Below are positions 7,822 through 33,666 of a DNA stretch of 64,000 nucleotides, one piece after another. The notes under the pieces are model-generated. The model worked only from the letters and a program-made list of their open reading frames with translations. It searched no databases and had not been told where the DNA came from. The position numbers and the translations under genes were made by a program. The stretch is from Psilocybe cubensis (Eukaryota), in contig CM039003.1 of the NCBI GenBank assembly GCA_017499595.2, positions 806,001 to 870,000 on the forward strand. The letters run 5' to 3'. Numbering within the stretch: position 1 is the stretch's first letter; every line of letters starts with the position of its first letter.

Positions 7822-10800
7822 TCAAAGCTTAGCCTTGACCTTACGAAGCTCCTTTGCTTGATCGCGTAACACGCGACGAAGCAGCTTCCCGCTAGGCGAT
7901 GTTGGGATCGCCGACACAAACTCAACTCCCCCAACCAAATGCTTATAGTGAATCTTGTTTTGGGCAACGTGCTATGCAGAAAAACGCGTGTTCAAGGTAC
8001 GTGTCCAGCATCGAATCTTAGGCAGGAACTTACCTTGATAATTGACGCCTTGATTGCTTCAGCAGCAGCAGCGCTTTGGCTTGCCCGCTTTGACGCGTCT
8101 GCTGTGAGTACCACGTAAGCAAGGGGGACCTCCCCACCTATGTTCATACCTATCAGAATCGATGCAAATCAGGCATATTGAAATGTACACACTGTATTCA
8201 TCGGGAATGCCAACGACACAGGTGTTGGAGACGTCAGGGTGGTCAAGTAGGCAACCTTCCAGCTCCGCAGGTGCGACCTGGAATCCTTTTACCTTGACAT
8301 ATATGTTAGGTTTGCAGTCCCCATACCAATAACTAGCGAGCTAAAATTACCTTCATGATCTCCTAGCAAAACAGACATCAAGGATCCAAGCATTGAACAC
8401 AACGTAAACGGCCAGGTAGTCAATTGAGACACTAACCTTTAGCCTATCCAACACAATCATCTCCCCATCTTCCATAATCTTTACCTCATCCCCCGTTCTT
8501 ACCCATCTACAACGAGTTTAAATCGCGTCAATATAGATCCAATAGAGTTTGCTAATCTCGCCGCCAACGCGACCAATCTAGCAGGTTTACGATATAGCGG
8601 ATTAACTTACCCATCAAGAAATGTTTCTTTAGTCCTATAGATTAAAAATAAAGATGTGTTAACTCGAGCATAACAATCATAACACCGAGATAGATGCGAC
8701 CCAGGGTATATCCAAAGGGGGAGATAAATCATCATGAAGCAGAGGAAAAGGACGGTGTTTAAGGGGAGCAGCAAAGAAACGAGAAACTTACGCTTCAGCA
8801 TTATTTGCGTAGCCCAGCGCGACAGAAGGCGTCCATACGATCAGCTCCCCAGCCTCTCCATAGTCCGCCAACGTTCCATCCTGCTTAACGACGCGCGCTA
8901 CAATGCCAGGTAGCAGGTGTCCGCTACCTACAGCATTCCGAACATCAACACATTAGCTTTTTTCAAGACATAAACATAACAAGTAGTAAATATGCACGTA
9001 CTTCCGGACACACCTCGTTTTCGTGTAATAGGCCACATCGTAGTAGCAGTGCACGTTTCCGTCATTCCTGTATTGCAATGTTTAGATTATCAGAATTTGG
9101 TTCAAGATCACGTATAGACCCCCAAAACACAAAATACCGCAGACATACCATAAGCTTGACCAATATGCGCATCGGGGAACATGGAAAAGAGTTGTTGGTT
9201 CAGTTCATGCGAAAGCGGTGCAGCCCCACACATAATCATCCGGATGTGCTTTCGAAGATCATATTTCTTCGTCGCTGGATGCTACAACCAACTAGCGTCA
9301 ATTACCCCACTCCCCAAACCAAACGGCTCTCAACACCGCGTATCTACAAAAGGAAGGCTCACCTTGCACAGCAACACCACCTGCGGAGGCACAAGCCTAC
9401 ACAGAGAAATGATCGTCGACGTCGACTCGCAGTCAGCTAAAGATAGCCTATCTCGGAGTAGTGGTAGATCTTACAGGAGATGGCTAATCCGATGCCGAAC
9501 GATGCTATTCAGCATCTCTACGAAATTGAACTTCGGAATTACCACAAGAGACATCTAGATAGGGTGGTTGCGGGTAAAGGTTGTTGAGCATTACAGCAGC
9601 GCTCGCAACGCTATGTGACCAAAACGCATTGACTTACTCCACAGAACAAAATGTAGTGTAGCTAGAAATACCATCAATTAGCAAAAATAACGTTTTATTG
9701 GCGCCATTGCTCATGATTTGCTCTGACACAGAGGGGATAAAAGTAGACGCACATTAATGACAAGACCATATATATCTGAGAATGCAGTAATGAATGCTTA
9801 GCTCATGGCCGTAGAAAACGTCAAATCAAGCAAACTCACGATAGAAGGGCAACACTAGGCAAGAGTAAAAATATCCAAATGATCAATATAAAGACTTAGT
9901 ACTATATCACCGAGCCAGTGGCGTTGAAAGTTACAATACGCACCTCCTATCGCGACATCCCCAGGACGAAATCGTTGGTCATTCCAGTCGCAGTAATTTT
10001 GGTTCACCTTGTTGTGTGCTGCTATTTGAATGACATTCGCGATCAACGCGAAGTGAGGGATAGCGACAGCCTAGAATAACATACAAATTTCTCGGTCAAT
10101 GATCGCTTCAAATTGATTGATGATGCTGCAAGAATAAGATGAACAATTCACTGACCTTTGGTCGCCCAGTAGTGCCTGACGAAAAGCTCAGGAATGCCAA
10201 CTTGGTCTTCGCCTCGCCAGGAGCCAGCCGCCTCTCAACATACCCAACCTTATTCTTCATCCCAAACTCCACCAGGCTGCTGATTGTCTCGTGGCTGCTG
10301 CCCCGAAGCACCTCTCCGGAGGTAGTGTTATGACTTACGTCAAACAACACGACGCGCGCAGATGGGAGACCCGCCTCGCGTGCTGCGTCCAGTGCGATTG
10401 ACAACGACTCCGGGTGGACCATGATGACAGCGGCATTGGTCGCTTGCAATTGATACAGCAGCTCACTGCTCGTGTAATCTGGATTCGCGCCACTGGAAGG
10501 TAGACAAGATGGGAAGTAGGGTAGGTTCCATTTCAGCCCCCGCGTCCTGCCGCGGCGCACTAGATGGCGCGAAGAGAAGGGTAGGTTACTTACGATATGA
10601 CACCCCCGAGTCTGTGTACTGCCCAAATGGCGACAGGGTAGTCTGAGAATCATCACGTATCAGCGCCGGGAGAAGGATATGAAAGTTCTGTAGGAGTGGA
10701 TTCTGGAAAGCACGAGTATGTAGTACTTACCGACATGATTGCGGCTGAAGACGAGAACTTAACAAGGGAGAGCTTCCATGAGCAACATGAGGCATAGACG

Positions 10801-11717: not shown

Positions 11718-14697
11718 CTACAATTTTCCCCTCGCCAATGGAGGGTGAGAATCAACATTGGAAATCTGTGACATCACTGCTTGCCGTAAAATTCTCCTCA
11801 AGATTTTGCCACTGCCGTTCTTCTGTAAAATTCGGACGACAGGGTTAGTTACGCAACAGTTTCAAGTCTGAGGTGTCAACAAGAAAGATGATATCCGTGG
11901 ACTACTTACCGGAATCTCGTCGACGATGCGAACGCCGCCTCGTAGGTGTTTGTGTGTAGACTTTCTATTTTCCACATGCTAAACTCGAAACAATAGAGCA
12001 AGTCTCGATAAGCCTAAGAAAAGATCATTAAGAATAGTGCCGAACCTTGATTAGACTGTCAGTCAGATATGTCTCCACGCACGAGCCGTCTGTCAGTAGC
12101 TCCCTGGCTGCCGCTGTAAGCACAACCAAGGCCATTGGTGCCTCGCCACTACGATTGTTAGGGATCCCAATGACACATGCTTCGGCCACGTCGGGGTGAG
12201 ATAGAAGGCAATCTTCAAGCTCTGAGGGCGCCACCTGAAATCCGTTTACCTTCATAAACTCCTGAGAGTTTGTCAATTGTAAGCCACTCATTATGGACCG
12301 TGAACGACTTGAGTCGTAATAGTGTATACCTTAAGTCGATCGTGTACGAATACCTCTTGATCATCCGTCATGGTAACTTCGTCTCCTGTATGAACCCAGC
12401 TTGAAGAAATGAACGTTATCAGCCAGTCAGATAGTTATTGCAGACAAATTACCCATCAATGAAAGTCTCCCTCGTGCTGAAGCAAAGATAAGTCAAATCA
12501 AAAATACCAGTGAGAAATTCAGTGACTCGAAGTACGTACGCTGCACTATTGTGGAGGTAGCCCAGTGCCATACCAGGACCTTTGACCACCAGTTCTCCTC
12601 TTTCGCCGTATCGAGCAAGGCTACCGTCGGGCTTCAGAACTCGAGCATGGATTCCTGGGAGTAGTTTACCACTGCCTGGTGTATTTCAGTTTCTGCAGTT
12701 ATTTTGGGCCATATCAAAAATAACCCACTTCCCAAAGAGCCGCGTTTTTGAGAGCCAGAAACCATTGCCAATGACACAGTCATTTCAGTAAGACCTACTG
12801 TAAAGTCAACTAGAAGTATGATAGCCATACAAACCTCACGTACCGTAAGCCTGTCCAATCTGTGCAGCAGGAAAGACATCACACAGTCTATTATGTATAT
12901 CCATTGATAGAGGAGCAGCGCCTAAGTATGAGGTCAATCTATACTCAATAACAGATAAAACATGCGCCTTGTCACCTATCAGAACATATTTGATGTGCGT
13001 GAAATTGTACCGTTTAGCTACCGGATTCTACGCTGACCTCATTACAGTCGGGTATTAATTAGCTGATACAGACACGAACCTTGGTAAAATGGATCGCTAT
13101 CGGTGGAACAATACTTAATTGAATTTTGCCTTCAGTGAGTCTCGACACAGAAGGCGCTACTTGCAAAAATGTGGCACATACATCAGGTGAGATATTCTAT
13201 GCTTGAATATACTCTGGCACAATGCAGGAAAGTCGTATTTTGGTACGACCACAACAGTCATCTAGATCTTATTAGGCAAATAGACTCTTTCTTACATATA
13301 GCAGTCAACTTACTGCACAGAATAGTGCCAAGTGAAGCTAGATTGACGAAGTTCAGCCGAGTTAGCCGGGCGAATGACGTAGGTAAATGCAACCACTGCA
13401 ACTCACAGAGATAATCAATCCTGCGACGTCTGATCGTGTTTGGTTCAGCGAATCTATTGGAGTATTATCACGTTCTCAAGACCCACGATAGAAAGGCAGA
13501 ACTATAATTCAGCCTAGTTAACACCGAGCAATTAAATATCGACATTTGGTAAGAATTCTTACCTCCTAATGAGACATCACCTGGTCGATACGTCCAAAGC
13601 TCACGCTGGCATGGTGCTCTGTCGACGTGATTGTGAACTGCCATTTGAATGATATTCGCAATGAGAGCATGGTGTGGAATCGCGACAGCCTATAGCAGAT
13701 ATAGAATGGATCCGTTACGATCAATCAGGAAGACGGATGGATGTGCTGAAAAATCGTGCCTTTGGCATCCCTGTAGTACCCGATGACCAGCATAGGATCG
13801 CTATCTTTGTCTTGCCTTCCCCTTTTCTTAACTTCGTCTCATGAAATGCCCTAGGATGAACTCTGCCTTGCCGTATAAGGTCAGGCACATTTCGAAAGAT
13901 CTGATAGTCGTAGATGACACCGAAATTAGTGTTAGGATTGTCAAGAATGATGATTCTGTTAGTTGGCACCCCAGCCAGACTTGCCGCCAGCACCGCTACT
14001 CCGAGAAGGGTCGAGTGTACGAAAATGTAGGTTACCCTTGCGGTCGTCAACTGATAGGCCACTTCTTCCGGTTTGAATTGAGGATTTGAAAATCTTTATG
14101 TTGGATAGATATATGAGAGCTTCAGAAATGTAACGATTGGCAAATTAACGTACGAGACAACGCCGCCTAGTTTGTGAAAAGCCCATACAGCGACTGGGTA
14201 ATCTATAAGCGCTCGCATGAGCTCAGTGTTCGGATGTAGAATGTCCATGCATACATATATCATTTGGGCTCAGAATCAAAGCTAAATAATCGTAAGTGCT
14301 AAATCCATGGCTATGAGTAGAGGATAAACCTACCTATATCCTTTTCCCCTGCAAAATAGACACGATTGTGGGTTTGAGCGCTTGTGCCGGTGTTCAAATT
14401 TAAATAGTTGTATACAGACCGAGATTGAAAGCCAAATAAAGGCCGTTCGCAAGATCGTCGGTCTGAGCTTTGAGCTGATCAAATTTAGCCTTTAGTTGCC
14501 GACTCAAGGTCCACAAAATTGTATTCACTCACCGATTCAAAGCTCACCGACCGTCCTGAAGTATCATCTATGAGGCAGGGCATAAGGTTGCTCCTCGTTG
14601 GCCGTATATCATGTTCATAATCCAGCATAAATTGAGCGATAGTGAGGTTATCAGGGATATGAGGGAGAAGCTCCTTGTCTGTGTGAAGCTCAGCCAT
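11718..14697 (-). CDS. 4-coumarate:CoA-ligase-like AMP-binding enzyme 2, PTS1-like (GKL)
   Basis: LPHIPDNLTIAQF, LCWSSGTTGMPK, WVHTGDEV, MKVNGFQVAPSELE, KNGSGKILRRILR, C-terminus ...LARGKL* (TAG 11718-11720). Confidence 0.88.
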
Positions 14698-18983: not shown

Positions 18984-21254
18984 TCAAGTCAAATTTTCAT
19001 TCGTTATGCCATGCCAGAAATTACAGCGAGAAACCAGTGCGTCGTCAACTCGTTCCATCACAGAATTTTGTGGATTAAAGAGGATGCGTGAAAAGCTAGA
19101 ATCACTGTTGACGGGCTATATGACCAGTTCGATATTCAGTCATCTGGTGTCAGTGAGAATTGTACAGTACTAACCTGCCACTCTGGGCCAGATTTGGAAA
19201 CAGGCTTGCCCGTAGTTACGAATGATGTCAAATACTCTCGCATGATTTCAAAGAGTGCTAGATCATTATGGTCTGCATCTGTAGGGGGGTTAAAGAACGC
19301 CTGCAGCTCGTCCTCATGGTTGGAACCCAGGTGAGGATTATCGTAACTATGACGTGGGTCAGGGTCTGCAGGATCCTTAAATTCGCACAAAAGGCGTACT
19401 GGTATTGGTATGCAGAATCCCCGAAAGCCGGAACGGCAGGAGTTGCCATTAAAGCACTGCAAATATATCTAGCCTCACCATACATTTGCTGACCTTGCAG
19501 GCTAACATTACCACCGAAGTCGTTCAACGGATACAAAGAGAATCCGGTGTTGATGATACTTTCACTAGTCAGATTAGGATACTGTCCAATAAGGAAATTA
19601 AAGACAGTGGTTTCTGTTGCGTTTGCCAAAGATGTATTGGCCGCAGGATCCGGGATGGTGGAAGCCCAATGAGCACCTTCATTTGTATTCGAGCCTGAAA
19701 TGACGGGAATATGGGCGAACCGACCAGCTTGGTAGGCTTCGACTGGCCTTTCCTGAATCAGGGCATTATCGACAACTGGAGCAAAAAGAAATAAAGTATC
19801 CGGCCGGGCATCGAGTAGTTTGCTTCCGGCTTTTGCCACCGCAGTGCTGGTGAGTCCGCGAAGGCAGCTTAGTTGTCCTTTTTTGGCGGCGCTCGTTCCG
19901 CTTCCGCATCCTCTAGAATGAAGGTTAAAAATAAGAATATAAGAAGGTATATTTAACCCACGCAAGCTGTGCGAATTGCTGAAAGATATCTTCATCGTAG
20001 GCATCATTGAATGCAGGCGTGTAGACAAGAGGTGGACTGTCCATTATTGCCGCATGAAAGAGGCCTTCAGTATCTCCACCGTTTGCCATGAGCTGACGGA
20101 CAGGATCAACGACTGCAGTTACAGTGATATCTACATGAACTTACATGGTACATTATGGATCCTGCTCCTGCAGACTGACCCCACACTGTGACGTGGCTGG
20201 TATTAAATTAACATCAAGATGAAACTTATTGATCAGATTTTTTTAGATTTTGCGGGACGCTGCTTACCCGCTGTCCCCTCCAAATTGACCGATGTATCTT
20301 TGGACCCATTTCAGAGCAGCCCTCTTGTAACCATATTTAGTAACGTTATGTTTCCCTGAAGAGTGCATGCATCAGATGACATACCTGATCCAAGAGCCCA
20401 GCGTTTATTGACCCGTTGCTAGCAATTTCTGATCCTCCTGCAACGTATGACATTATCTTCTGGGGCAATTTATTTGGATATTAGTTGCTACAAACCCAAG
20501 AATCCAAATTGGCCGAGACGGTATTCAAAAGAAGCAAATACGAATGGTTGAGAACTTGATGCCATAAGTAAATCGGGAAGAAAGCTATGCGTGCTGCCAG
20601 ATTGGAATCCCCCACCTACATAGCTGACATGAGATCGACGATCATGGCATCAAAAGTAGGGACTGCTATACCATGGAACCATACTAGTACTGGAAGATTG
20701 TCGCCCACATGTGTATTGTTAGGCACAAAGATCTATCAGGCATTTGCTCAATTACGCTCTGGAGCATAGCGCAAAAATTCAGACTGACATTGCCGAAAAG
20801 GCAATCCTCAGATGTTTTAGTCGCCACAGTAGTTTGAGTCGTCCGAATGCATTCGGCGCCAAACTTGAAAACAGAAAATCAGGCCCATCCCAGAAAGCAT
20901 GATAAAGCATAACTTACCTTACTCGCATCCACAGTACCCAAATTCTTGGAAGGAGGAGAAATAGGGGCTGCCCATCGTAGATTTTTCGTCGGAGCGTCTG
21001 CAAACTTGACACCTCGGAATGAAATTATCCCATTCGTAGTATTCTGCTTTCCCTTGAATTTCCCGTCTACCAATGCCGATGAAAGATGGTTAGCGTCGAT
21101 GCCAATATATTAAGGAGCAAAAAAACATACAATCCAACGTCACTGTGGAGCCAATAAGAGCACCCATACTTCTTGTTGTGAGGTCGCATAGTACTAAACG
21201 TTGGAGAAAGAAGAGAAGCAGCAGCGACAGTATATAGTGCGTCCTGTCTGCCAT
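18984..21254 (-). CDS. Type-B carboxylesterase/lipase paralog 2, secreted, multi-exon
   Basis: Signal-like MADRTHYILSLLLLFFLQRLVLC, FRGVKFADAPTKNLRW, WGQSAGAGS, GSNTNEGAHW, SLQGQQMYGEARYIC (shared with paralog 1), NHEDEL. Stop at 18984-18986. Confidence 0.9.
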
Positions 21255-22402: not shown

Positions 22403-22430
22403 GAGGACAGGTGGTTTGCGAAAAAAAATG

Positions 22431-22476
22431 GCGCGGACTGTCCGCCAGACTGTCCGCCGGACTGTCCGCCGGACTC
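22431..22476. repeat. Left subterminal array of 12-bp quasi-palindromic units (GGACTGTCCGCC)
   Basis: GCGCGGACTGTCCGCCAGACTGTCCGCCGGACTGTCCGCCGGACTC read directly from the sequence. Confidence 0.9.
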
Positions 22477-22808
22477 ATAGGCCTTTGGGTGGGCCTGTGT
22501 GACTTGGGTGAGTGACAGCCGTGCTCACTCTGCTCTACAGCGATCAGTGGCCTTCCCCGACACATTACCGCCCTCCGCCCCCCGCCCCCGACCTGGCCAT
22601 GAGAATGCTAAGTGCCACTGGTTAATATTTTAATGGCACCCCGCCTCTCCTGTATTTTTCCGCCTTTTCCACCAGTTACTCCTGCGGTGTGCTACTTCCA
22701 TAGACAAGGCCCGTTTAGGTAGTATTTATTGTAGCTGTTTTAGTAGACAATAGATGTAAAATGCTAATACAATTACATCGTTGAACAACTTCTAACCTTG
22801 CAACCATT

Positions 22809-25096
22809 ATGTCCTCTTCATCTAGTGCATATTCTTCATCTACTCTCCAATCAATCCTTCAAATCCAAGCTAGTATTGCCAAATATTTGGACTTTGAAGG
22901 ATGTTTGAAGTTCATTGAACTTATCCAACTCCTAAAGCCAACAATCTGTCTGTCACAACAACCAGGACTAGCAGAATCTGATGCGGGTGAAGACAAATGT
23001 CCAGCACGGTTGCGTCTGAACGTACACACTTTTCTCGCACAATCTTTAAGTGTCGATCATGAGGCTATGAAGATTATTTGGCGTGCAATGGCCAATATTG
23101 CGTGGAATTTTAGGGTTGATGAAAGCTGTGTTCATTCCTTTGGTCAACGTCATATTCAATGCTTTCTTGACTATGGAAGACAGAATGGCATAGGTGAGTT
23201 AGCATATATATCAAGCTAAAACCACTACTAATTCTAAAATCGGAGCCTTTTATCATCTAATGCCTCCTGTTCGTCATTGCCTTGATCCACGATGTGTTAT
23301 CAAGCCCAAGACTTCTAAAAAGGATGAGCTCCATCGACGTCCACTGAAAGAAGCACATAGCCGTTCTGTTACTGTTTTTACACAATCATTTGGACCCATC
23401 CCGGGTATTTCTACTTCAATGTTTTGTTCGGGTATGTGTTTAGTATTGTTATTTTGTTGAAACTCCCCCTTCTAACAATAATAAACGCAGGATGCCAAAC
23501 TCGATACTACCCTAACTACTGGGTAGATAGAGCACAATCCACTCGGACATTTTACCGTATACATCGCACCTTTCTGCATGTTACAGAAGGAATTTTTATG
23601 GACATTGCCACGTTGGAATTGTTTACGACAATGATGTTGACGTCTTGGTAGCTTCTTTCTTTTGTTGTGAATTTCTTCCATTAACTTGGAGTGTACAGGA
23701 CTTCTGCTTCAAATTGTGCCCGCATCTATAATGAAGCAATAGCTTCAAAGTCCCTGTCATCCTCTCTTCCTGCAGCATATTCCAAAAGCATGGTGCTAGA
23801 ACACAATGACGTATGGAATGGTCTTAGTCTCTTCTGGCTTCTTGAAGACTCGGAAGAAGAAGATGAGGTCTTACAAATTGACCATGTAGCGCCTAGTCAA
23901 GCCATCCGCCTCAGAAAAGCCTTAAAGAGACGGAACCTTCGGATGGCAGGGACTGGTCAGGAAGCTTGGAACCATGTATGTGATTTATGCTGCTGGTATA
24001 ATGATTTGCCCGATGGAACACAGAGTAAATTTTGAAAATTTATGATTCTAGTGATATATAACTCATGCTTGATTCTAGCTTTCCTTCGTTCTGTGGTTAC
24101 TGATGGCATAACTATTGGACGGCCTACCTGCTCTATTCATGACTGCGATATTCCTTTGGATTCCGTCAAACATCGGTTCTGCCCTACACATAAAGATCAG
24201 AACCTTATCTGTGCGGTTACTAGCTGCTCAGCTCCCATTGATGAGGGCTATCAAACGTGCAGTCTGAAGGATCACCGAGCTCTTGAAGCATACAACGATA
24301 TCCACAATAAAGCAATGTTTCAATTAAAACTTCGGCTTGCCCGTCTCAAAACCTCACAGCCCACTGATGCCTTTTCCACTGATGATGGCCAGTCAACCAT
24401 ATTTGGCGATGAAGAGGTTTTGATTGACGCCAATGGTGTCTGTGACGAGAAGTCAGAGAAGGGTAATCAAACATTGCGAGCTCGGTTTGGAAGGCGACGC
24501 ACTCATAATGAAGAGCTGTGTGTGGCATCGTGTGGTGTAATTCTTGGACGAGCAACATTCTATGGTTCAGAGGCCCCAAACGGAGTACGGGTGCGTCATT
24601 TTTCTTGCTTCTAGAGAATTGTTGCTTATTTAATTTTCAGACATTTTGGAAGACTTTGTTTCCTACCCAAAAGTCTCTTCCAGGAGTTCTTTGGCACGAC
24701 AATAACTGTCGAATTATGTTAATGCTTGAAAAGGAGAAAGACACGTACTTTTCCCACTCAGCATTACCCGTTGACGTATTCCATTTCAAGTGTAAACATA
24801 AAGCTCAAGACGACAAATGTAATGCCAATTGTAACCCAGCAAAATGGCCCGAGCTTATGACGCCTGATGGGAAGTGGCGTTTTAACTCATCTGCAGCAGA
24901 ACAAGCCAACGCTTGGCTAGGAGGGTATCAAGCCATTGTTCGTGAGATGCAGGCCGACAGATATGAATTCTTTTTGGACGAGTTAATCAAGAGGCGAAAT
25001 CGAAACATCATTAAGGATTTGGAGAAAAAAGGGAAAAATCCACATGAAATCCCAAGGGATTTTTTACTCAAGCCAGATACACCCAGAGTCGATTAG
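22809..25096 (+). CDS. KDZ-type transposase with CxC5 and CxC6 cysteine clusters (6 exons, apparently intact)
   Basis: CxC5-like PPVRHCLDPRC...SMFCSGCQTRYYPNYWV. CxC6-like CSIHDC...RFCPTH...CAVTSC...TCSLKDH. Core motifs VVTDG, RRRTHNE..CGVI, HDNNC, VDVFHFKCKH, FNSSAAEQANAW. Exons join in frame at GT-AG sites. Confidence 0.88.
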
Positions 25097-25921
25097 TGAT
25101 ATGTAGGAAGTTGTAATAAAGAGCATTAGAAATCATGTTGGAACCTACATTAGTTGTTGTGAACAAGCAGCAATCCGGGTTTAGTTGTTGCTCTGTGTCT
25201 TGAAAGCCTGCCGCTCGCACGATAACCCCGGCCCAGGGGTGATCCTTGGTGTTATCAAACAAGCGGCAGTTTTTCAAAACATGCATCCAGTATTGCCTCG
25301 CTACCCCACAACAATAAGCTGTAATAAGCTTTGCCACTGATGAAACTGAGAAACACATATGGGCACGGCGTCAACAAAGTGTGAAGTGTGAATGCCAGTT
25401 TATTGAAAGCTAGGGTGCTAACACTCGATCAATAACCAGACCCAGAACAAACGTGAATCAAAAACATTGAAACTGAAGGCAGGAAATCGCATTAACATGC
25501 CGAAAACTCACCGCGTCATATATCAACCCATGCTGATCCCACACCTTGACTTGACTCGCAGCACCTCCGCAACGCCCAACATCCTTCACACGCGCTGTTG
25601 TCACGCATGTCTACCACCTCATCCTCATCCTCCTTTCCTAAGTATTGATGCGCATACATGCTTCCGGGGTACATTGGCATTTCGTGTTCTACATCACTCT
25701 GGCACACTGAGGTCGAGTTGAGAAACGTTCGTCCGGTTGATGAGAGAGATGAGGTTGTGGGGTTGTGGGCAGCATTGTGGAGACAATATTGAACGGGAGT
25801 CGCAAAAGGGAAGAGACCGATTCTGAATACCACTTTTGAGTTGTACAGAGAACAGGATTGCGCTGAGCTCTGAGTCCGTCGGCGTCCGCGTGAGCGCACC
25901 CATGACATCTGCGAGCTCGTT

Positions 25922-26736
25922 AATAAGTAGCCGCTTCTCCCCAATCCACCGAGTAACTCTGTCAGCGTCTATTAATTCCAACAGCTCAGGATCATCCTTC
26001 ATTTGCTCGCGGGTCAGCATAATGCGATATGCAGCCTGTCCAGAATCCACCACATGATCCGTCGAACCAAGTTCCTTCAGCATTGCTGCTCGAGTGAGCG
26101 ACTTGATACCATCGGCGGCTAATATGATATCAGCCTCGACTCGCACGGCTGGACCTACTAATGGCGTAGCCAAGAACGATGGCTTCCTGTCATCCCCGCC
26201 AAAATTCACTTCAGATACGGCAGTCGAGAAGTGAAAGGTAATGGCAGATTGTGCTTTGCAGCCTTCGTAAAGGCTCCCAGCGAGCGAGGCACGGTGTCCT
26301 ACCATGTGAGCGTAGCCATATTTATCTTTGACGGAGTCGAACTCGACAAAGCCGAGCTCTTTGTCGGTTGTTCCCTCTGGGAAGATTTAAGCACATTGAT
26401 TTACTATGTCAAGAACTGATATTACTTACGTCTGATGCTCGTGCTCTTGACTAAGACAGCCTCGGACTCGATCTTTTTCCAAACGCCGAGTTTATCGAGA
26501 ATGCGTGCCATATTGGGGGCAAGTTGAATTCCTGCTCCTACAAAACCTAGGTTGGGCGCAGTTTCGTAGACATCGATATAGAGAAACCCTTCGTGTGCTA
26601 ACGAGAGGGCACAAGTGAGGCCACCCATGCCTTGATACTAGCTATGAGTTCATCATGTGAGTCAACTAACCGGAGGAAGGAGCTCACCTGCTCCAAAGAC
26701 CGCGACTCTCAACCGTCTGACGTCGTCGAAGGTCAT
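25922..26736 (-). pseudogene. 3'-truncated FAD-dependent monooxygenase (salicylate-hydroxylase-like) inside the transposon
   Basis: MTFDDVRRLRVAVFGAG|MGGL Rossmann motif, GAGIQLAPN, ADGIKS, GQAAYRI. Similarity ends at RWIGEKRLLI and no GD(A)xH motif follows. The frame runs on into unrelated sequence to a stop at 25694. Two introns are retained. Confidence 0.82.
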
Positions 26737-26745
26737 CGTTATCAG

Positions 26746-26913
26746 ACCTAGAGAAAGACACAAGACTCAGTGAACATGATGCATGAACGACTATGTTCCA
26801 ATCTACCTAGAGAAAGACACGAGACTAGATAATAGTGTAGTTAGTGACTAGGCGAGAGGATGCTAAAGGGAGAGTGGAAACTTTACCTCAGTGAACATGA
26901 TGCATGAACGACT
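26746..26913 (-). repeat. 47-bp duplication: intronless copy at 26746-26792; second copy at 26805-26824 + 26887-26913, split by a 62-nt GT-AG intron (26825-26886)
   Basis: Direct comparison shows one mismatch. On the minus strand the intron reads GTAAAG...CACTAAC...TATCTAG. Confidence 0.85.
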
Positions 26914-27431
26914 GAGGGAAAGAGGGCCGATGGATTTATTGAGACGGAAGCTATGAGCGCAATGAGCAGGTCATTCCTTGGGGAAGAGTGCTGTAGACAT
27001 ACCACAATTAAAAAACTCGCACTTGTTTCCGGCTACAAATACAAGCCAGAGCCCGTTGTCATCCAAAAAATTTCGATGGAGTGATTTGACGGACTTACAG
27101 CACGGATTTTGAGGTCGGGTCTTGCAGGGAGTCTTGACGTTGACGAGCGAGCTGTTCTACTCGCCTCTCAGTGACCGGGGGTTGTTGATGTGGTTTTGAG
27201 TATGTTGCCAGTGTATTTCCGTGCCCGAAAATTCCTGGTAACATACTCTCTGCCTCTTGGTTGGTGGAAACAGCGAACGGGTGTGTTGGGAGGTGTAAAC
27301 GATGGATGTGCACACGGTCATGTGACTACACGCGCCCTCACGACTTCGTCAATTTCTGGGTCGTCGGATTGGCATTAACTGTAAATTTGTTCAATTGTAA
27401 TATAAGTAATCGTTACAAAGTGCTACTGTAG

Positions 27432-30224
27432 CTACAGAGAATCAGGCTCTAAAGTCAAGTCAATGATTTCCCAGGTACCAAAAGCAATGCCAGGATGAGC
27501 AGAAACATCCTGCTTGATAGGTTTTTGGCCTGGAGAATCCACGGTCAGGTCAATAATATCACCGCTGATAACAGCACGCTCTTTTCCTTTTGCAGAGCCA
27601 GTGAGGGTAATACTATCACTCTTCTCTTCTTTTATAGTAGGAGTAGATATTGCTGCATCCTTGGTGATAGCATGCTTGTCTTGCAAAAGTTGCATTACTT
27701 CTAGCATAGAAATCCGAAGATCTTCTTGAATGAGAAGTGTCACTGTTTCAGGAAAAAGCACCTCTTCAATAACTGAATCATAGGTGAGAGGCTGTAGAAT
27801 TGACATATCTATGTCTTCTGAATCTTCAGGAAACATTTCTCTTAGCTCAGAAATAATAAGAGCTTGTATCTCTGGACCATAGCTTTGTAGAAGATACAAA
27901 TTAGTAAATCTAGCCATCTAAGAGCAGTATAAAATTACTTACTAGGCAATGCAATCTAAAAGAAGTTGATTCTTTGATTTATCCGGAGTTTGACTGCAGC
28001 TAGCTTCAAAGGTTTTTCTGGAATTACAGAAAAACATGCTTTCTTCAGGGTCCATAAGAACGTAACAAAGTAATTCTTTATCACCCTGGATTTGATGACG
28101 GAGACTGGATATCTTTTCTTTGGTCAATAATCCACCATTGACATTAGACTGAGCTATATGAGGCAAGGAAATATGGGAAAGAGGGCTGACACGAGCACTA
28201 GGACTGATGTTTTCTGAAGAACTTGAGTCATCCAAGCTGTCTGAAGAGGAGGACTCAGAAAAGGTATCTGGAATATCCTGGGGGTTTTTTAAGGCAGCCT
28301 GTAATGACCTATATGTTGCCTGTTTCGAGTTGCCCATGTCCACAAAATAGCCAACAATATCTTTGTCATATGTTTTCCAATAAGATTTGTGTTCATAAAA
28401 TGTGGATTTGTGAAAAGAAGCATCTGGAAAAGCAGCATAGAAAGCATCTTTGACACTTATACGAGATCTTGGACGAATAGATAATGCAGATTTCTTGGAT
28501 GACTTCATATAAGGGTTGCTTCTAGAGGTTTGAGATTTGGATAGTGTTTCTTGCATTTGAAGAAATCCATTGTGAATTTGATAGACCTTGAAATCAAACG
28601 GCCACTGCTTTGTAGAGTTATGAGATTTCTTTAGAACCTTTGGTGGTGGTGGTAAGTTATGAGATTTCTTTAGAACTTTTGGTGGTGGGGGTAAATCACT
28701 GTCTGATGAATTTGGGGTTCTATATCCATGTGGGCGCTTCTTCCTAGGAATATGGATATGATTTGATAAAATTGGACTAGCAGACCGATTTCTTGAGGTA
28801 GAATGTGTAATTGTTAGAGAAGATGCTTCCTGTATTGCAGATTGACGAATAGGCGACACTAATGTGGTGTGTTGTTGGGCTAACAAAGCTTGTGATGTCT
28901 TTGGTTGTAGTTTGAGCTCATCTTCAATTCCAGGACAGTGCTCTAATGTTTCTCTAAGGCTTGGACGGATTTTTAAAATCAGTCTTTGGCCCTTTTCAAC
29001 AGTAAGAACACTTTCCATGGTGAGAGTTACCCATTCTCCTTTCCAGTAATCCAGTTTGGTTGTTGGCTGAAGCTCCAAGTTTTTCATTAACTCAGCAGAG
29101 TCTGACAAGCGAAAATGGGGAAAGGATTGTATATAATATTCAAGCCTAATAGGAGGCTGTCCATTCTAGAAGAATATTATTAACTGCTTGAATATAAACA
29201 AGAATATGAACTCACAGTGTGATATACAACCAAAATACATGTTCTTTTTCGTTGTTCATCCATTTCATGTTGTTTAACTTTTAGAGATTTGAGGTTTCGG
29301 GTATGACTAAGTAATCCTGTTCGCTTTTGTGCCCATGTACCTCCTACAGGTTGAGCCAGGCCTCTTGGAATAACCTGTCCAAGTCCGAACTGAGTAGCAG
29401 GTGGTGTAGAAATAACCATATCCTGGTTTGGGGATTGATTTGGAGAGACCTGAGAAGCAGAAATATTGAAAGGGCTCGGTGGTGGTGAGATAGAAATGTT
29501 TTGGGTAACAGATTGGGTAGAAAGAGGAGGAAGAGGAGGAGAATGAACTTGAGAGATTCTTTCTGGAGAAGCAGGAGTTGAAATATCAGGAGCATAAGGT
29601 ACATTTTCGGGCTGGCGATGGGCATGACATGCCTTTCTAAAAGCTTGCTTAGAAATGGCATCTTTGCAAGCTTTGGTACAACAGGTCTTGCATTTATTTT
29701 CAATGCAAGTTCTACTCCCTTGAGTTCGGGTTCCTGACTTTGTAAAGCATGTAGAAACTGTGCAGAGTAGTTTATCTGATATTGGAATAGGAATAACACC
29801 AGTAGAGTTGGACTGAGCTCGTCTTTGTTGAGTCTGATTTGGCTGAGAAGAAGAATGATTGGCAGTGTTTGAAATGGAAATATAAGGTCTAAGAGTGCGA
29901 GGATAGCCCTGTGGATCATCAGGAAAATTAATTCGGTGCAAAAGACGTTGGGCATCCTCATATATATATGCAGGAGTATGATGATAGGTGTACAAACACC
30001 TATAATCAGAACACTAGACAATTAATTAGACTTGCACAATAAGCTAAGTTAATAACACATACAGTTTGACAGAGAGATCCTTTCAAATGCCTCTTGGAAG
30101 GAGATCCAGTAGCTTTGTATATAGCTATAGGTGGCATAGGTCTTCCACATGGGCGGTTGGATCTTCCTGGACAAAGACCAATAGGTGATATAGTAGGATC
30201 AGGAGGTAGGTTATCTGGGTTCAT
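27432..30224 (-). CDS. Transposon partner protein with Cys-rich N-terminal clusters and a C-terminal RTC4-like domain (4 exons)
   Basis: Exons join in frame (CQT|CSDYRC, VVYHT|NGQPP, CIAY|YGPE). Cys cluster CTVSTC...CIENKCKTCCTKAC...CHAH. Motif WPFDF...GF...STFYEHKSYW. C-terminal YYGP...PLTYDSVIEEVLFPETVTLLIQEDL resembles the RTC4 domain. Confidence 0.7.
28616..28693. repeat. 39-bp tandem duplication encoding LPPPPKVLKKSHN twice
   Basis: AGTTATGAGATTTCTTTAGAAC(C/T)TTTGGTGGTGG(T/G)GGTA occurs twice in tandem. Confidence 0.9.
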
Positions 30225-30618
30225 TGCTAAAACTATGCTCTAAAACTCAAGAACTTGTGCCAAATTTATAGATTTTCGGTTGTCATATTACATATATCTC
30301 CCTATAGAGAGCTACATAGTATGTCAATGCAGAGATTTCTAGCTTTGGCGCTACAAAGCGCGTCTAAACACGAGTGGCTGCGTTGGGCCAGCCACAATAT
30401 CCAAAAATGGAAAAGAAGCCGCAATAAGCCGGCCCAATTCTCACGTGTTTGGCAGTAGTGTCAAGTGGCAACAACAATGCGTGCGCCGTGTAGCGCATCA
30501 AGCGGCGGGGCATTGTTGGAAAGCATTGAGCTCGCTGCCTCGAACAGTGACCATGCAAGTGGGCCCCCGACGTGGCCCGGAGGTCACACTATGGTCACAA
30601 ATACCCACGATACACCCA

Positions 30619-30652
30619 GAGTCCGGCGGACTGTCCGCCAGACTGTCCGCGC
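30619..30652. repeat. Right subterminal array of quasi-palindromic units
   Basis: GAGTCCGGCGGACTGTCCGCCAGACTGTCCGCGC, ending 28 nt before the element end. Confidence 0.9.
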
Positions 30653-30680
30653 GAAAAAAACTCGTGGACGAACCTTTCTG

Positions 30681-30819: not shown

Positions 30820-33666
30820 CTACAGCTTGGACTTGACCTTCCGGAGCTCCCTTGCTTGTTCACGCAAAACACGTCGAAGTAACTTTCCGCTCGGGGTGGT
30901 CGGAATGCTTGAGACAAATTCCACGCCGCCTGCCAAATGCTTATATTGTGTTTTGTGGGTTTTGACGTGCTGGACGAGACATATGATTAGACGAAAAGAA
31001 CCTTGTTGCGTTTCGGACGGACATTCTTACCTTAATGATAGATGCCTTGATTTCATCTGCAGCTGTCTTGCTCATTTTCGCTCTATTCGCGGCGTCTACT
31101 GTCAACGTAACAAATGCAAGTGGAATCTCTCCGCCTCATCATTATGGTCAGAATTATTATTAACACGCATGAACAAATTGCTCACTGTAATCATCTGGAA
31201 CCCCAACAACGCAGGTACCAGACACGTCGGGATGATCCAAAATACATCCTTCGAGTTCCGCTGGAGCAACCTGAAATCCTTTCACCTGATTGACATGGAT
31301 GTCAGGATCTATCCGCCCGGCATTTAATATTACATACCTTCAAAAACTCCTGATAGTTAACATAGTCAGTGTGAATTTCGTCCCAACCAAGGAAAATCAC
31401 ACCTTCAACCGATCAATCACCATCATCTCTCCGTCTTCTCCGATTTTTACCAAATCACCTGTCCTTACCCAACTGAAATGCAAAAGACTATTCAGATTCA
31501 TTTTATTGCCGTACGGAAAATTGTATATACCCATCGACAAACGTTTCTTTTGTTCTGGGAAAAAGAATAGAGAAAGTCAAAGTCGACGCCAACAATGACA
31601 ACGGAGTGCTCACGCTTCATGGTTGTTTAGGTACCCCAATGCAACTGAAGGAGTTTTTATGACCAATTCACCAGCTTCGTCGAAACCGGCCAAAGACCCA
31701 TCGCTTTTGACTACCCGGGCCACCATTCCAGGGATAAGTTGACCACTGCCTAGGTTTACACAATTTAGCCCATTACGTGACAGGTAAGTATTGTGAGCCT
31801 TACTTCCAGCGACTCCTCTTTTCTGCGTGGTGGGCCACAAAGTGGTGATTGTTGCGGTTTCGGTCGTTCCTTCATATGGTGTTCCAATAGTTTGAGGATT
31901 AAGCATACACAGTCACGTACCATGTCCTTGACCGATTTGGGCATCAGGGAACATTTCGAAGAGTCGTTGATTCAGCTCATGAGAGAGGGGAGCTGCTCCG
32001 CACATTATCACTCGAATATACCTGCGAAGGTTGTAATCCTTGACGGCAGGATGCTGAAAGATATAATCCAACGTTCAGTATCGACATATGCTTCAAAAAC
32101 CTTATGGATACCTTGCATAATAAGACCACTTGAGGAGGTACAAGCCTATAGAAAGGTTATCAAATTTTTCAAAGAAAGCTAGAAAGAAAATACATAAGGT
32201 GAGTAATTCGATGGCGCTCGATGCTTTTGAGGAACTCGATGAAGTTAAATGTCGGAAACACGACCAAAGACATCTGGTTGATTCGTTCGTTTCTCTGTCA
32301 CAATAAATGAAGTTGAAATCTCGAATTTGACATACCCCAAAAAACAATGTATAATGAAGCTGCAATGATCACACCCATTAACGAGCTGAACAAGACCTAA
32401 AGGGAACAAAATTACGTTCATGGCAAGGCCATACATATCTGTAGTATAGTGTTAGTTTACATACAAGGCATCAAGGTCTCTGTAAGATTTCACATACGAT
32501 AAAACGGGAGTACTGGTAGTAGTGTGAGTCATCTACGCCTTCAACACTTAGGAAATTAAACTAACCTGCACTAGCCACATCTCCAGGTCTGTATCGTTGG
32601 TCCTTCCAATCACAATAATTTTGATTGAGTTTATTATGAGCAGCCACCTGGATAGTATTCGCAATTATTGAATAATGAGGTATAGCTACGGCCTAAAGTT
32701 TCAAAGCTCAGTCATAAACCGTCTATTTTCAGAGTATTAACTCCACCTTTGGGCGGCCTGTTGTACCGGATGAAAAAGAGAGAAATGCAAGTTTGGTTTT
32801 GGCTTCTCCAGGAGCAAAGGTTCGTTCCGTGAATGCGAGGTTACTTCTTAAACCCAGTTCAACAAGGCTATCGACTGTTTCGTGACCCTCGGAGGGCTTT
32901 TCAGTGCCATCATTCGCACTGAACAAGATTATTCGGTCTGAAGGCAACCCGGCTTGCTTTGCAACCTCGAGTGCAACATCCAGGGAGTCGGGATGAACAA
33001 TCATGAGAGATGCCTTTGTTTCATGAAATTGATACAGCAATTCGCTGCTCAGGAAATCAGGATTTGCTCCTCTACAAAAGTCGGATTTTAGAGCCGTTAG
33101 AGGTAGATGATTAGCTGTGGGACGTACGATATAATCCCTCCAAGCTTCAGTACCGCCCAAATCGCAACAGGATAATCTAAATATACCAACGTAAGATGTT
33201 AGCTCAGGGGAAAAGGATGTACATACCCATCTGATTACGACAGTATAAAAGAACTGTGGAACGAACGCATCGTTGTCATGTATAATAGTCAACTACAGAT
33301 GATAGGGATTAACCCACCAACTTCGTCTTCTCCTGCTCTTCGTTTTAATTAAAAATTTCACAGATACCAATGGCGTAGACAACACACCTAGACCAAACCT
33401 GGATTTCAACCCACGCGCAAGTGAATCCGTTCTAAACCGCAACTGACGCACGAAAGGGGTCAAACAAATAGGTAGACATAGACCTAGTATTGTTATCCTA
33501 CCTCCCCTTCCGTGAAAGTCTTCCCAGTTTTATCGTGAATTAGCCAAGGAACACCATTTCGTCTGCCCGGACGCATTGGATGATTAGTCTCAAACATAAA
33601 TTGAGGGATCGTGACATCGTCAGGAATGTAGGGCAGTTCTATTCCTTCAATTGGATACCGTTCCAT
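30820..33666 (-). CDS. 4-coumarate:CoA-ligase-like AMP-binding enzyme 3, PTS1 (SKL)
   Basis: LPYIPDDVTIPQF, FLSFSSGTTGRPK, WVRTGDLV, VKGFQVAPAELE, IPTTPSGKLLRRVLR, C-terminus ...KVKSKL* (TAG 30820-30822). Confidence 0.9.

What the first reader, a model, noticed from the sequence alone, without database searches (positions are those of the whole stretch)
26746..26913. A precisely spliced copy of an exon-exon junction sits in tandem with its intron-containing original
Seen, on the minus strand: AGTCGTTCATGCATCATGTTCACTGAG, then a 62-nt intron [GTAAAG...CACTAAC...TATCTAG], then TCTCGTGTCTTTCTCTAGGT. After a 12-nt spacer comes AGTCGTTCATGCATCATGTTCACTGAG|TCTTGTGTCTTTCTCTAGGT, ending 9 nt before the monooxygenase ATG. 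The second copy lacks exactly the canonical intron and differs by one CpG-type transition. Inference: a 47-nt mRNA- or cDNA-templated patch (RNA-templated break repair), a rarely visible intermediate of intron loss. Alternatives are intron gain in one copy, or a deletion guided by the 2-nt AG microhomology.
Basis: partly seen in the sequence, partly recalled or inferred. Interest (0 to 1): 0.75.

Follow-up and report, generated by a model that had tools for sequence, protein, structure and literature searches.

The report
Spliced mini-copy beside its intron-bearing source
In a mushroom (Psilocybe cubensis) genome, a 47-base copy of two short exon pieces with the intron exactly missing sits next to the intron-containing original, inside a patchwork of captured gene fragments; it looks like a scar of DNA repair that copied a spliced RNA, but no RNA data show this.

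Summary
On the minus strand the order is A (27 nt), a 62-nt GT..CTAAC..AG segment, B (20 nt), 12 nt, A' (27/27 identical), B' (19/20), 9 nt, then ATG. An independent assembly contig and raw reads carry the same structure.

- The "monooxygenase" is a truncated ~820-bp duplicate (25922-26741, introns retained) of a full-length, expressed gene.
- That gene's transcript has a different 5' leader, so A/B are not this gene's own UTR.
- The region is a mosaic of short fragments between KDZ-associated CxC5/CxC6 ORFs and an RTC4-like gene. The whole 8.2-kb block is bounded by arrays of a 12-nt palindromic motif.
- A plus its GTAAAG donor is a small dispersed family. Elsewhere A is also followed by this donor, so the intron-bearing state looks ancestral.

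Best reading (about 0.5): A'B' is a short patch templated by spliced RNA or cDNA and laid down during end-joining. It has no poly(A) and no target duplication, and 3-4 unmatched letters sit at each junction.

Not shown: that the 62 nt is spliced, where transcription starts, or when the event happened. An A-like element follows the same spacer at another locus, and A'B' seems to occur in a second context.

The parts
26914..26926 (-). CT-rich tract directly upstream of A. It is part of the core shared with other loci.
   Evidence: sequence. In one search, X13 loose ends begin behind 26917 (46 reads), 26922 (122 reads) and 26926 (50 reads), and all continue as pyrimidine-rich sequence on the minus strand. 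Two of them then reach a TATA-like box.
26887..26913 (-). A: 27-nt upstream exon piece of copy 1. It ends in GAG just before the donor.
   Evidence: In one search the depth at 26902 is 275 in X13, against about 68 in the next bin upstream, and 109.1 in X9, against 7.8 for the window-type contig. A is therefore multi-locus.
26825..26886 (-). 62-nt intron-shaped segment: GTAAAG donor, CACTAAC branch motif with its branch A 17 nt before the final G, and a TAG acceptor. It is absent from copy 2.
   Evidence: Splicing is not shown: no RNA contig covers it.
26805..26824 (-). B: 20-nt downstream exon piece of copy 1. It ends in CTAG|GT.
26793..26804 (-). 12-nt spacer. The 9 nt at 26804-26796 still belong to the source homology. 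The 3 nt at 26795-26793 match nothing and look like junction filler.
   Evidence: In one search, 58 X13 reads match the window from 26796 upward and then diverge. In one search, no source of 8 or more letters lies within +-4 kb.
26766..26792 (-). A': an identical second copy of A, joined directly to B'.
26746..26765 (-). B': second copy of B, with one difference at 26762 (TG here, CG in B).
   Evidence: In one search, 69 of 151 X13 reads and one of two X9 contigs have the B-like letter at 26762.
26742..26745 (-). 4 letters between B' and the start of monooxygenase homology (junction filler or ambiguous).
   Evidence: In one search, RNA contig record 9 matches up to 26741 and then runs on for 132 unlike letters.
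25922..26741 (-). Truncated duplicate of the 5' part of a FAD-dependent monooxygenase gene (residues 1 to about 235). Both introns are retained (26631-26687 and 26377-26429).
   Evidence: P0001 is 100% identical and 293 aa long; P0002 is 99% identical. P0002 continues as a normal full-length enzyme; no significant homology after 25922 (E = 0.28); both introns are spliced in RNA contigs that carry donor-type letters.
25853..25920 (.). 68-nt patch abutting the monooxygenase fragment, with 1 unmatched letter between them. It is about 90% like an internal part of another, highly covered RNA contig.
   Evidence: record 6: 1237 nt, depth 478, 7 other letters in 68, unlike sequence on both sides.
26943..27195 (.). 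Stretch of about 250 nt that also exists at another locus (about 98% alike).
   Evidence: X9 record 16: a 1515-nt contig, depth 14.6, 5 differences, that matches only over 26943-27195.
22428..22481 (.). Left array of the 12-nt palindromic motif; possible end of an 8.2-kb mobile block.
   Evidence: Of 10 motif matches in the window (<=2 mismatches), 8 fall in the two arrays at 22.4 and 30.6 kb; the other 2 are isolated 2-mismatch matches at 4907 and 42386.
30609..30662 (.). Right array of the same motif.
23203..24611 (+). ORFs with CxC5 and CxC6 cysteine clusters, the families associated with KDZ transposases.
   Evidence: CxC6 E = 3.6e-27; CxC5 E = 1.1e-11 and 4.2e-06. No KDZ catalytic domain was found.
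27435..30013 (-). Upstream ORFs on the same strand (277 + 407 + 161 aa) ending in an RTC4-like domain.
   Evidence: RTC4 E = 4.8e-05; 12 homologues at 25-43% identity, none named.

Best explanation
A'B' (26746-26792) is a 47-nt patch copied from a spliced RNA, either directly or through a short cDNA. The RNA came from the neighbouring A-intron-B unit or from a near-identical member of its small family. The patch was fixed by end-joining while a break was being repaired inside a mosaic of captured gene fragments in a KDZ-associated mobile block.

Proposed course (inferred): a broken DNA end primed on the transcript just 3' of B. Synthesis then ran to the RNA's 5' end, which would be the first base of A. 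The new end was joined to the other break end with a few unmatched letters.

The monooxygenase ATG downstream belongs to an unrelated, truncated captured fragment. The patch is therefore a repair scar, not a step in the evolution of a working gene.

Shown: the structure, its reality in DNA, the fragment nature of the monooxygenase, and the multi-locus nature of A plus its donor. Inferred: the RNA template, the start of transcription at A, and the order of events.
For: 1. The piece missing from copy 2 has exactly the shape of an intron (GT, CTAAC branch motif, AG). Only 10 to 39 of 127,876 random 62-mers of the window do.
2. The two copies are 46/47 identical in the window, and 47/47 in 69 of 151 X13 reads, so the event is recent.
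3. In other loci A is also followed by the same donor. Reads and contigs stay aligned 6-12 nt into the 62-nt segment: X13 diverges at 26875 (91 reads), X9 at 26879 (2 records) and 26881 (1 record). The 91-read consensus is still partly like the window's intron. The intron-bearing state is therefore the family norm.
4. The duplication starts exactly at the first base of A, 4-13 nt inside the family-conserved core. In two family variants a TATA-like box lies about 33 nt upstream of that base, and in the window an AATAAAT lies 27 nt upstream. This is where transcription would be expected to start, and it fits run-off at an RNA 5' end.
5. There is no poly(A) and no target-site duplication. Unmatched letters sit at each junction: 3 nt before A', 4 nt after B', and 1 nt between the monooxygenase fragment and the next 68-nt patch. 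These are the features described for class 2 templated sequence insertions (PMC5110952, passages read).
6. The surrounding sequence is a chain of short fragments with sources elsewhere (records 6, 9, 14 and 16), so the region has a history of patch-type repair or capture.
Against: 1. No RNA data cover A, B or the 62 nt, so splicing of this segment is not shown. The donor GTAAAG lacks the usual G at position +5, whereas the two RNA-verified introns nearby start GTAAGT and GTGAGC.
2. The large neighbouring fragment (monooxygenase) kept both introns, so it was copied from DNA. Capture in this region is not generally RNA-based.
3. 58 X13 reads match the window from 26796 upward (no variant row among the 40 shown of 123) and then continue with 4 other letters plus an A-like element that differs from A at about 4-5 of 26 positions. 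A second A after the same spacer may therefore be older than, or independent of, this locus.
4. Depth at 26762 (151) is about twice that at 26701 (86). The B-like variant makes up the excess, so A'B' probably also exists in a context without this monooxygenase fragment.
5. One X9 contig carrying that variant joins 26792 to 26883 in a way I could not resolve.
Confidence: 0.5

Rival explanations
1. DNA-only route. The unit A-intron-B(-spacer) was first duplicated in tandem as DNA. The intron of the downstream copy was then removed by a genomic deletion between the two AG dinucleotides (microhomology-mediated end joining). The downstream spacer was later replaced when the monooxygenase fragment arrived.
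For: A 2-nt AG microhomology flanks the missing piece (the 22-nt D2 repeat). Microhomology at exon-intron junctions has been proposed to drive exact intron loss (PMC3698931; search listing and start of abstract only). The neighbouring captured fragment is DNA-derived, with its introns kept.
Against: It needs two or three separate events within a very short time (0-1 differences in 47 nt). The letters after B' do not resemble the spacer after B. A 2-nt microhomology offers hundreds of alternative deletions in a unit of about 120 nt, yet the one seen removes exactly a GT..branch..AG segment. No read or contig shows a tandem form with two introns (table 5).
Confidence: 0.15
2. The arrangement was inherited, not made here. 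The source gene family already carries an A-like element downstream of B in its second exon (an old internal repeat), or an intronless family member exists. The mobile block simply copied that DNA. The near-identity of A and A' would then reflect later conversion.
For: In one search, 58 X13 reads show the same intron-B-spacer followed by a diverged A-like element at another place. The A'B' junction has about double depth and two variants. The A core is present at roughly 4 times (X13) to 14 times (X9) the local baseline depth.
Against: A and B (27 and 20 nt) are very short substrates for conversion, and conversion from DNA would bring the intron along. A'B' equals the spliced product of the adjacent unit letter for letter in the B-like variant. 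Even under this reading, the first origin of an exactly intron-less junction still needs an explanation, and the RNA route is the likeliest.
Confidence: 0.2
3. Intron gain. A short intronless 59-nt tandem duplication came first, and the 62-nt segment was inserted later into the upstream copy (intron transposition, an introner-like element, or filler DNA that happens to be spliceable).
For: The spliced-form period is 59 nt. Nothing in the window alone fixes the direction of the change.
Against: Other loci have the same donor directly after A, with diverged but related sequence beyond it, so the intron predates this locus. There is no second copy of the 62 nt in the window. Estimated depth in the interior of the 62-nt segment is only about 1.5 times the baseline (my arithmetic, table 2), unlike a proliferating introner.
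Confidence: 0.08
4. Assembly or chance artefact.
For: None found.
Against: An identical 283-nt contig from another run, study and species label spans the whole structure (record 15). Raw reads cover it continuously. 0 of 100 shuffles reproduce the repeat.
Confidence: 0.01

Closest known systems
Class 2 templated sequence insertions / TSIPs: short reverse-transcribed RNA patches used to repair double-strand breaks (PMC5110952, passages read; mouse-zygote capture of reverse-transcribed spliced mRNA at Cas9 breaks, PMC4516963, listing and start of abstract)
   Same: A short insert that matches a transcribed sequence with the intron exactly missing. No poly(A), no target-site duplication, and a few unmatched letters at the junctions. 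It lies in a region with other patch-like inserts.
   Different: The source sits 12 nt away on the same strand rather than at a distant locus, which gives a tandem arrangement. The patch is only 47 nt and appears to start at the transcript's 5' end. The host is a basidiomycete. The RNA origin is inferred, not shown.
Transcript-RNA-templated or RNA-guided break repair in cis (yeast and human experiments: PMC11390984, abstract read; PMC12065846, listing only)
   Same: A gene's own spliced transcript supplies the sequence information at a break in or near that gene. The intron-less state is transferred to DNA.
   Different: The experiments restore or delete sequence in place. Here the copy was added beside the original (misaligned), and it is a natural, inherited event with no experimental proof.
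cDNA-mediated (reverse-transcriptase model) intron loss (PMC3652778, listing and start of abstract)
   Same: Exact removal of a spliceosomal intron through a spliced RNA intermediate.
   Different: The intron of the original copy is still present. Nothing was lost from a gene; a second, intron-less mini-copy was added in non-coding mosaic DNA.
Gene-fragment capture by DNA transposons (Pack-MULE or CACTA-type capture; recalled, not checked in a paper here)
   Same: A block with transposase-associated ORFs (CxC5/CxC6 of KDZ elements), bounded by repeat arrays, carries pieces of unrelated host genes with their introns retained.
   Different: The element's ends and a catalytic transposase were not established. 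The 47-nt piece lacks its intron, which DNA-level capture does not explain.
Rogers' tandem-duplication model of intron gain (recalled)
   Same: The duplicated unit contains AG|GT at the end of B. The stretch 26806-26748 (59 nt, GT..AG, pyrimidine-rich 3' end) could itself be spliced out and hide the duplication in RNA.
   Different: This concerns a possible consequence of the duplication, not the origin of the missing 62 nt, and it is untested.

Membership tests
RNA-derived templated patch at a break (class 2 TSI type) | The insert matches a transcribed source sequence. | tested here: inconclusive
   The source is identified in DNA: A and B lie 12 nt upstream, 46-47/47 identical. Transcription of A/B is not shown, because no RNA contig covers them.
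RNA-derived templated patch at a break (class 2 TSI type) | The intron is exactly absent at canonical splice boundaries. | tested here: met
   GT..CACTAAC..AG, 62 nt; 7.8e-5 to 3e-4 of random 62-mers have this shape.
RNA-derived templated patch at a break (class 2 TSI type) | No poly(A) tail and no target-site duplication; end-joining junctions with microhomology or unmatched letters. | tested here: met
   no A-run after B' and no repeated flank; 3 and 4 letters at the two junctions are not matched by either neighbour's source.
RNA-derived templated patch at a break (class 2 TSI type) | An empty-site allele without the patch. | tested here: not met
   no joint skipping 59 or 121 nt in X13 reads or X9 contigs. 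Only 2 DNA runs gave information here; X10 did not cover the place.
Processed retrocopy (retrotransposon-mediated) | A 3' end of the mRNA with poly(A), flanked by target-site duplications. | tested here: not met
   the copy holds only the first 47 nt of the spliced form, with no poly(A) and no duplication of the flanks.
Introner-like element (intron gain) | Many near-identical copies of the intron sequence across the genome. | tested here: not met
   1 copy in 64 kb; estimated interior depth is about 1.5 times baseline, and other loci diverge after 6-12 nt. The whole genome was not available.
Native 5' UTR intron of the downstream monooxygenase | Transcripts of the gene carry A/B as their leader. 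| tested here: not met
   record 9: the transcript with spliced introns 1 and 2 has 132 unlike letters upstream of 26741; the window copy is truncated.
KDZ-type DNA transposon carrying captured fragments | Transposase gene, defined termini, and host gene fragments inside. | tested here: inconclusive
   CxC5/CxC6 domains are present, but no catalytic KDZ domain was found. Palindromic 12-nt arrays lie 8.2 kb apart, but they are mirror-like rather than clean inverted repeats, and no target duplication was identified. Fragments of at least 3 other loci lie inside.

The most novel reading that the evidence does not exclude
This would be a natural, heritable footprint of transcript-templated break repair in cis in a mushroom-forming fungus. 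A broken end primed on the locus's own spliced transcript, copied it to the capped 5' end (run-off at the first base of A), and was end-joined 12 nt downstream of the template's own exon. The RNA-derived copy and its intron-containing template are thereby preserved side by side, and the site is still polymorphic among strains at 26762. Such a pair would allow direct measurement of what RNA-templated repair leaves behind in a wild genome.
Probability: 0.3. Interest if true: 0.7.

Novelty: new member of a known kind. Interest (0 to 1): 0.45.

Why it matters
Exact intron loss and RNA-templated repair are well supported in experiments and by comparative statistics. Natural cases in which the spliced copy and its intron-bearing template lie next to each other, almost unmutated, are rarely seen. 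If RNA data confirm splicing and a transcription start at A, this locus would be a clean natural example in a basidiomycete, and it would show that RNA can feed into the fragment mosaics that build up inside DNA transposons. In practical terms, the publicly annotated 293-aa "monooxygenase OpS4" at this place is a truncated captured fragment, not a working gene.

Tried and rejected
- Whole-genome search: none is held for this window.
- RNA evidence: no RNA holder is listed for the A/B part. The one RNA-like run laid (X11) covers only 25853-26741 and comes from the full-length donor gene and one other transcript. Splicing of 26825-26886 therefore remains untested.
- Run X10 held only five short low-depth pieces, none over the finding.
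- Metagenome scan for the 26-nt A core: 0 matches.
- Rfam on 26300-27500 and 25100-26000: no hit on 26300-27500; on 25100-26000 three matches, all below their gathering scores (E = 0.6-3.7).
- Sensitive blastn of 26740-26960 against the window: no further A, B or intron copy.
- Self-blast of the window: only this repeat and a 39-nt tandem.
- Search for a nearby template of the 12-nt spacer: none of 8 letters or more within +-4 kb.
- ORF-continuity intron finder, meant to calibrate donor usage: too noisy (116 candidates, many of them false), so it is not used beyond noting that none starts GTAAAG.
- Apparent homology of the window to the enzyme's C-terminal half after 25922: not significant (E = 0.28).
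- Earlier findings of this scan: nothing by place, sequence or words.
- Homologues of the upstream 407-aa ORF: 12 unnamed relatives at 25-43% identity, uninformative for this question.
- I considered spliced-leader-type or snRNA-type genes for the conserved exon-plus-donor core. I dropped the idea: Rfam gives no match, no Sm-like site was seen, and a TATA-like box upstream fits an ordinary promoter.

Full report
OBSERVATION. On the minus strand the window reads as follows:
- A, 27 nt, 26913-26887.
- A 62-nt segment, 26886-26825, that starts GTAAAG, contains CACTAAC and ends TCTAG.
- B, 20 nt, 26824-26805.
- A 12-nt spacer, 26804-26793.
- A', 26792-26766, identical to A in 27 of 27 positions.
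- B', 26765-26746, identical to B in 19 of 20 positions; the difference is at 26762.
- 9 nt, then ATG at 26736-26734.

The repeat is not a chance match. The 27-mer, allowing up to 3 mismatches, occurs twice in the window and never in 100 shuffles. The 62-mer occurs once. The segment missing from copy 2 has the shape of an intron far beyond expectation. Only 10 of 127,876 62-mers of this window (strict CTAAC), or 39 of 127,876 (CTRAY), start GT, end AG and carry a branch motif 8-35 nt from the 3' end. The 2-nt AG overlap allows three registers, and only one of them gives GT..AG.

IS IT REAL DNA? No whole genome is held for this window. Of 15 runs listed, 12 hold part of a 3-kb stretch around the finding, and 9 of those hold at least half of its sampled words; the holders come from 5 studies. 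I had one read-laying run and used it on four runs.
- A 283-nt contig of X9 (another study and species label; record 15) spans 26671-26953 with 0 differences and 0 gaps.
- Raw reads of X13 cover the region without any joint that removes the 62 nt or either copy.
- X10 did not cover the place.
The structure is therefore genuine.

WHAT GENE FOLLOWS IT. Exon 3 of the downstream ORF is 100% identical to a 293-aa protein of Psilocybe cubensis annotated as "FAD-dependent monooxygenase OpS4" (P0001). It is 99% identical to the N-terminal part of P0002, which comes from another assembly of the species. Typical relatives are 430-450 aa long.

P0002 continues past ...GEKRLLI as a normal full-length enzyme. 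The window loses homology after 25922: a tblastn of the enzyme's C-terminal half gives E = 0.28.

RNA-like contigs of X11 show both coding introns spliced (26377-26429 and 26631-27687 corrected to 26631-26687). These contigs carry donor-type letters. They leave the window sequence upstream of 26741 (132 unlike letters) and downstream of 25922 (153 unlike letters, which continue the intact reading frame).

The window therefore holds an ~820-bp DNA-level duplicate of the 5' part of an expressed full-length gene, with its introns retained. X9 record 14 shows 5 differences in 685 nt against the donor type. A and B are not that gene's leader.

THE SURROUNDINGS ARE A MOSAIC. One search shows further pieces whose sources lie elsewhere:
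- 26943-27195 is about 98% like part of a 1515-nt contig from another locus (record 16).
- 25853-25920 is about 90% like an internal part of a highly covered 1237-nt RNA contig (record 6). It abuts the monooxygenase fragment with one unmatched letter between them.
- 25384-25740 has diverged paralogues (records 11 and 13).

The mosaic lies between two sets of ORFs. On one side are ORFs with CxC5 and CxC6 clusters, the Pfam families associated with KDZ transposases (23203-24611, plus strand). On the other are ORFs ending in an RTC4-like domain (27435-30013, minus strand). The whole 8.2-kb block is bounded by arrays of a 12-nt palindromic motif. Of 10 motif matches in the 64 kb (<=2 mismatches), 8 lie in these two arrays and 2 are isolated 2-mismatch matches elsewhere. 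I read this as a probable KDZ-type mobile block with captured fragments. Its ends and a catalytic transposase are not established.

A IS MULTI-LOCUS.
- In X13, depth is 275 at 26902, against about 68 in the next bin upstream. In X9 it is 109.1, against 7.8 for the window-type contig.
- X13 reads leave the window behind 26917 (46 reads), 26922 (122 reads) and 26926 (50 reads). All continue into pyrimidine-rich sequence on the minus strand. Two of the three consensuses then show a TATA-like box about 33 nt upstream of the first base of A.
- On the other side, X13 reads leave at 26875 (91 reads), and X9 contigs leave at 26879 and 26881. That is 6-12 nt inside the 62-nt segment, and the 91-read consensus is still partly like the window's intron.
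- In other members, therefore, A is followed by the same donor, and the intron-bearing state is the family norm.

MECHANISM. The copies are 46/47 identical. In 69 of 151 X13 reads, and in one of two X9 contigs, the letter at 26762 is the B-like one, giving 47/47. The event is therefore recent, and the window's T is a later CpG-type change.

The best reading is a patch templated by spliced RNA or cDNA, for three reasons:
- The 47-nt copy begins exactly at the first base of A. This lies inside the family-conserved core and at the distance from a TATA-like box where transcription is expected to start (my inference).
- It lacks exactly an intron-shaped piece.
- It has no poly(A) and no target-site duplication, and its junctions carry 3 and 4 letters that neither neighbour's source explains.
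These are the features described for class 2 templated sequence insertions (PMC5110952, passages read).

A simple course would be this. A broken end primes on the transcript just 3' of B. Synthesis runs off at the RNA 5' end. End-joining then attaches the product to the other break end 12 nt downstream of the genomic B. Transcript RNA influencing or templating break repair in cis has experimental precedent (PMC11390984, abstract; PMC12065846 and PMC4516963, listing and abstract starts only).

WHAT SPEAKS AGAINST THIS OR COMPLICATES IT.
1. No RNA contig covers A, B or the 62 nt, so splicing here is unproven. The donor GTAAAG lacks the usual +5 G, whereas the two verified neighbouring introns start GTAAGT and GTGAGC.
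2. The big neighbouring fragment was copied from DNA.
3. 58 X13 reads agree with the window from 26796 upward; no variant row appears there among the 40 shown of 123. They then continue with four other letters and an A-like element that differs from A at about 4-5 of 26 positions. A second A after the same spacer therefore exists at another place, and the tandem layout may be older or recurrent.
4. Depth doubles between 26701 (86) and 26762 (151), and the B-like variant accounts for the excess. A'B' therefore probably also occurs without this monooxygenase fragment.
5. One X9 contig with the B-like variant joins 26792 to 26883 ("between: not known"), and I could not interpret it.
Only 30 letters of each loose end were visible. 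In addition, 83 variant rows, 50 loose-end rows and 24 pieces were not shown.

RIVALS.
- DNA tandem duplication followed by exact deletion at the AG microhomology (0.15). It needs several quick events and an unlikely exact deletion, and no two-intron form was seen.
- Inheritance of a pre-existing arrangement from the source family (0.2). The diverged A-like element and the double depth support it, but it still leaves the first origin of the intron-less junction to an RNA route.
- Intron gain in copy 1 (0.08). The family data speak against it.
- Artefact (0.01).

SIDE NOTE. Because B ends in CTAG|GT, the stretch 26806-26748 (59 nt, GT..AG, pyrimidine-rich 3' end) could itself be removed as an intron. 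That would hide the duplication in RNA. This is untested.

VERDICT. The RNA-patch idea is the best-supported reading but remains unproven. The framing as this gene's own exon junction and as an intermediate of intron loss is not supported. It is a new, tidy natural member of a known kind (RNA-derived repair patches), sitting in a transposon-associated mosaic of captured fragments.

Noticed in passing
window 22428-22481 and 30609-30662: Arrays of a 12-nt palindromic motif (core CGGACTGTCCGCC), each next to an A-run. Of 10 motif matches in the 64 kb (<=2 mismatches), 8 lie in these two arrays; the other 2 are isolated 2-mismatch matches at 4907 and 42386. They bound an 8.2-kb block that holds the CxC5/CxC6 ORFs, the fragment mosaic and the RTC4-like ORFs, and may be the ends of a mobile element. 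The layout is mirror-like rather than a clean inverted repeat.
   Followed up: partly
window 25853-25920: A 68-nt stretch about 90% like an internal part of a 1237-nt RNA contig with very high depth (478) in run X11, with unlike sequence on both sides. It looks like another short captured patch directly after the truncated monooxygenase fragment. The public 293-aa gene model reads through it.
   Followed up: partly
window 26943-27195: About 250 nt that are about 98% identical to part of a contig from another locus in run X9 (depth 14.6, about two haplotypes). The window-type contigs there have depth 7.8-8.4 (about one haplotype), so the mosaic may be hemizygous in that strain.
   Followed up: no
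window 26748-26806 (minus strand): The duplication itself creates a 59-nt GT..AG stretch with a pyrimidine-rich 3' end, running from B's CTAG|GT to B''s CTAG|GT. If spliced, it would restore a single-unit RNA (the tandem-duplication route to a new intron). Untested.
   Followed up: no
window 28616-28693: An exact-register 39-nt tandem duplication (95% identical) inside the 407-aa ORF upstream. It adds 13 codons in frame.
   Followed up: no
window 4219-5806 (+), 19139-20043 (-); 10111-10659, 13724-14095, 32732-33292 (-): Two carboxylesterase-like genes and three genes for AMP-binding enzymes lie around the mobile block. This suggests a locally duplicated metabolic gene neighbourhood.
   Followed up: no
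window 25931-26374 (monooxygenase exon 3): Apart from the species' own copies, the closest relatives of this basidiomycete enzyme are mostly Dothideomycete (ascomycete) proteins at 59-66% identity. A Psilocybe cf. subviscida protein is at 64%. This is too flat a pattern to infer transfer, but it was not examined with a tree.
   Followed up: no
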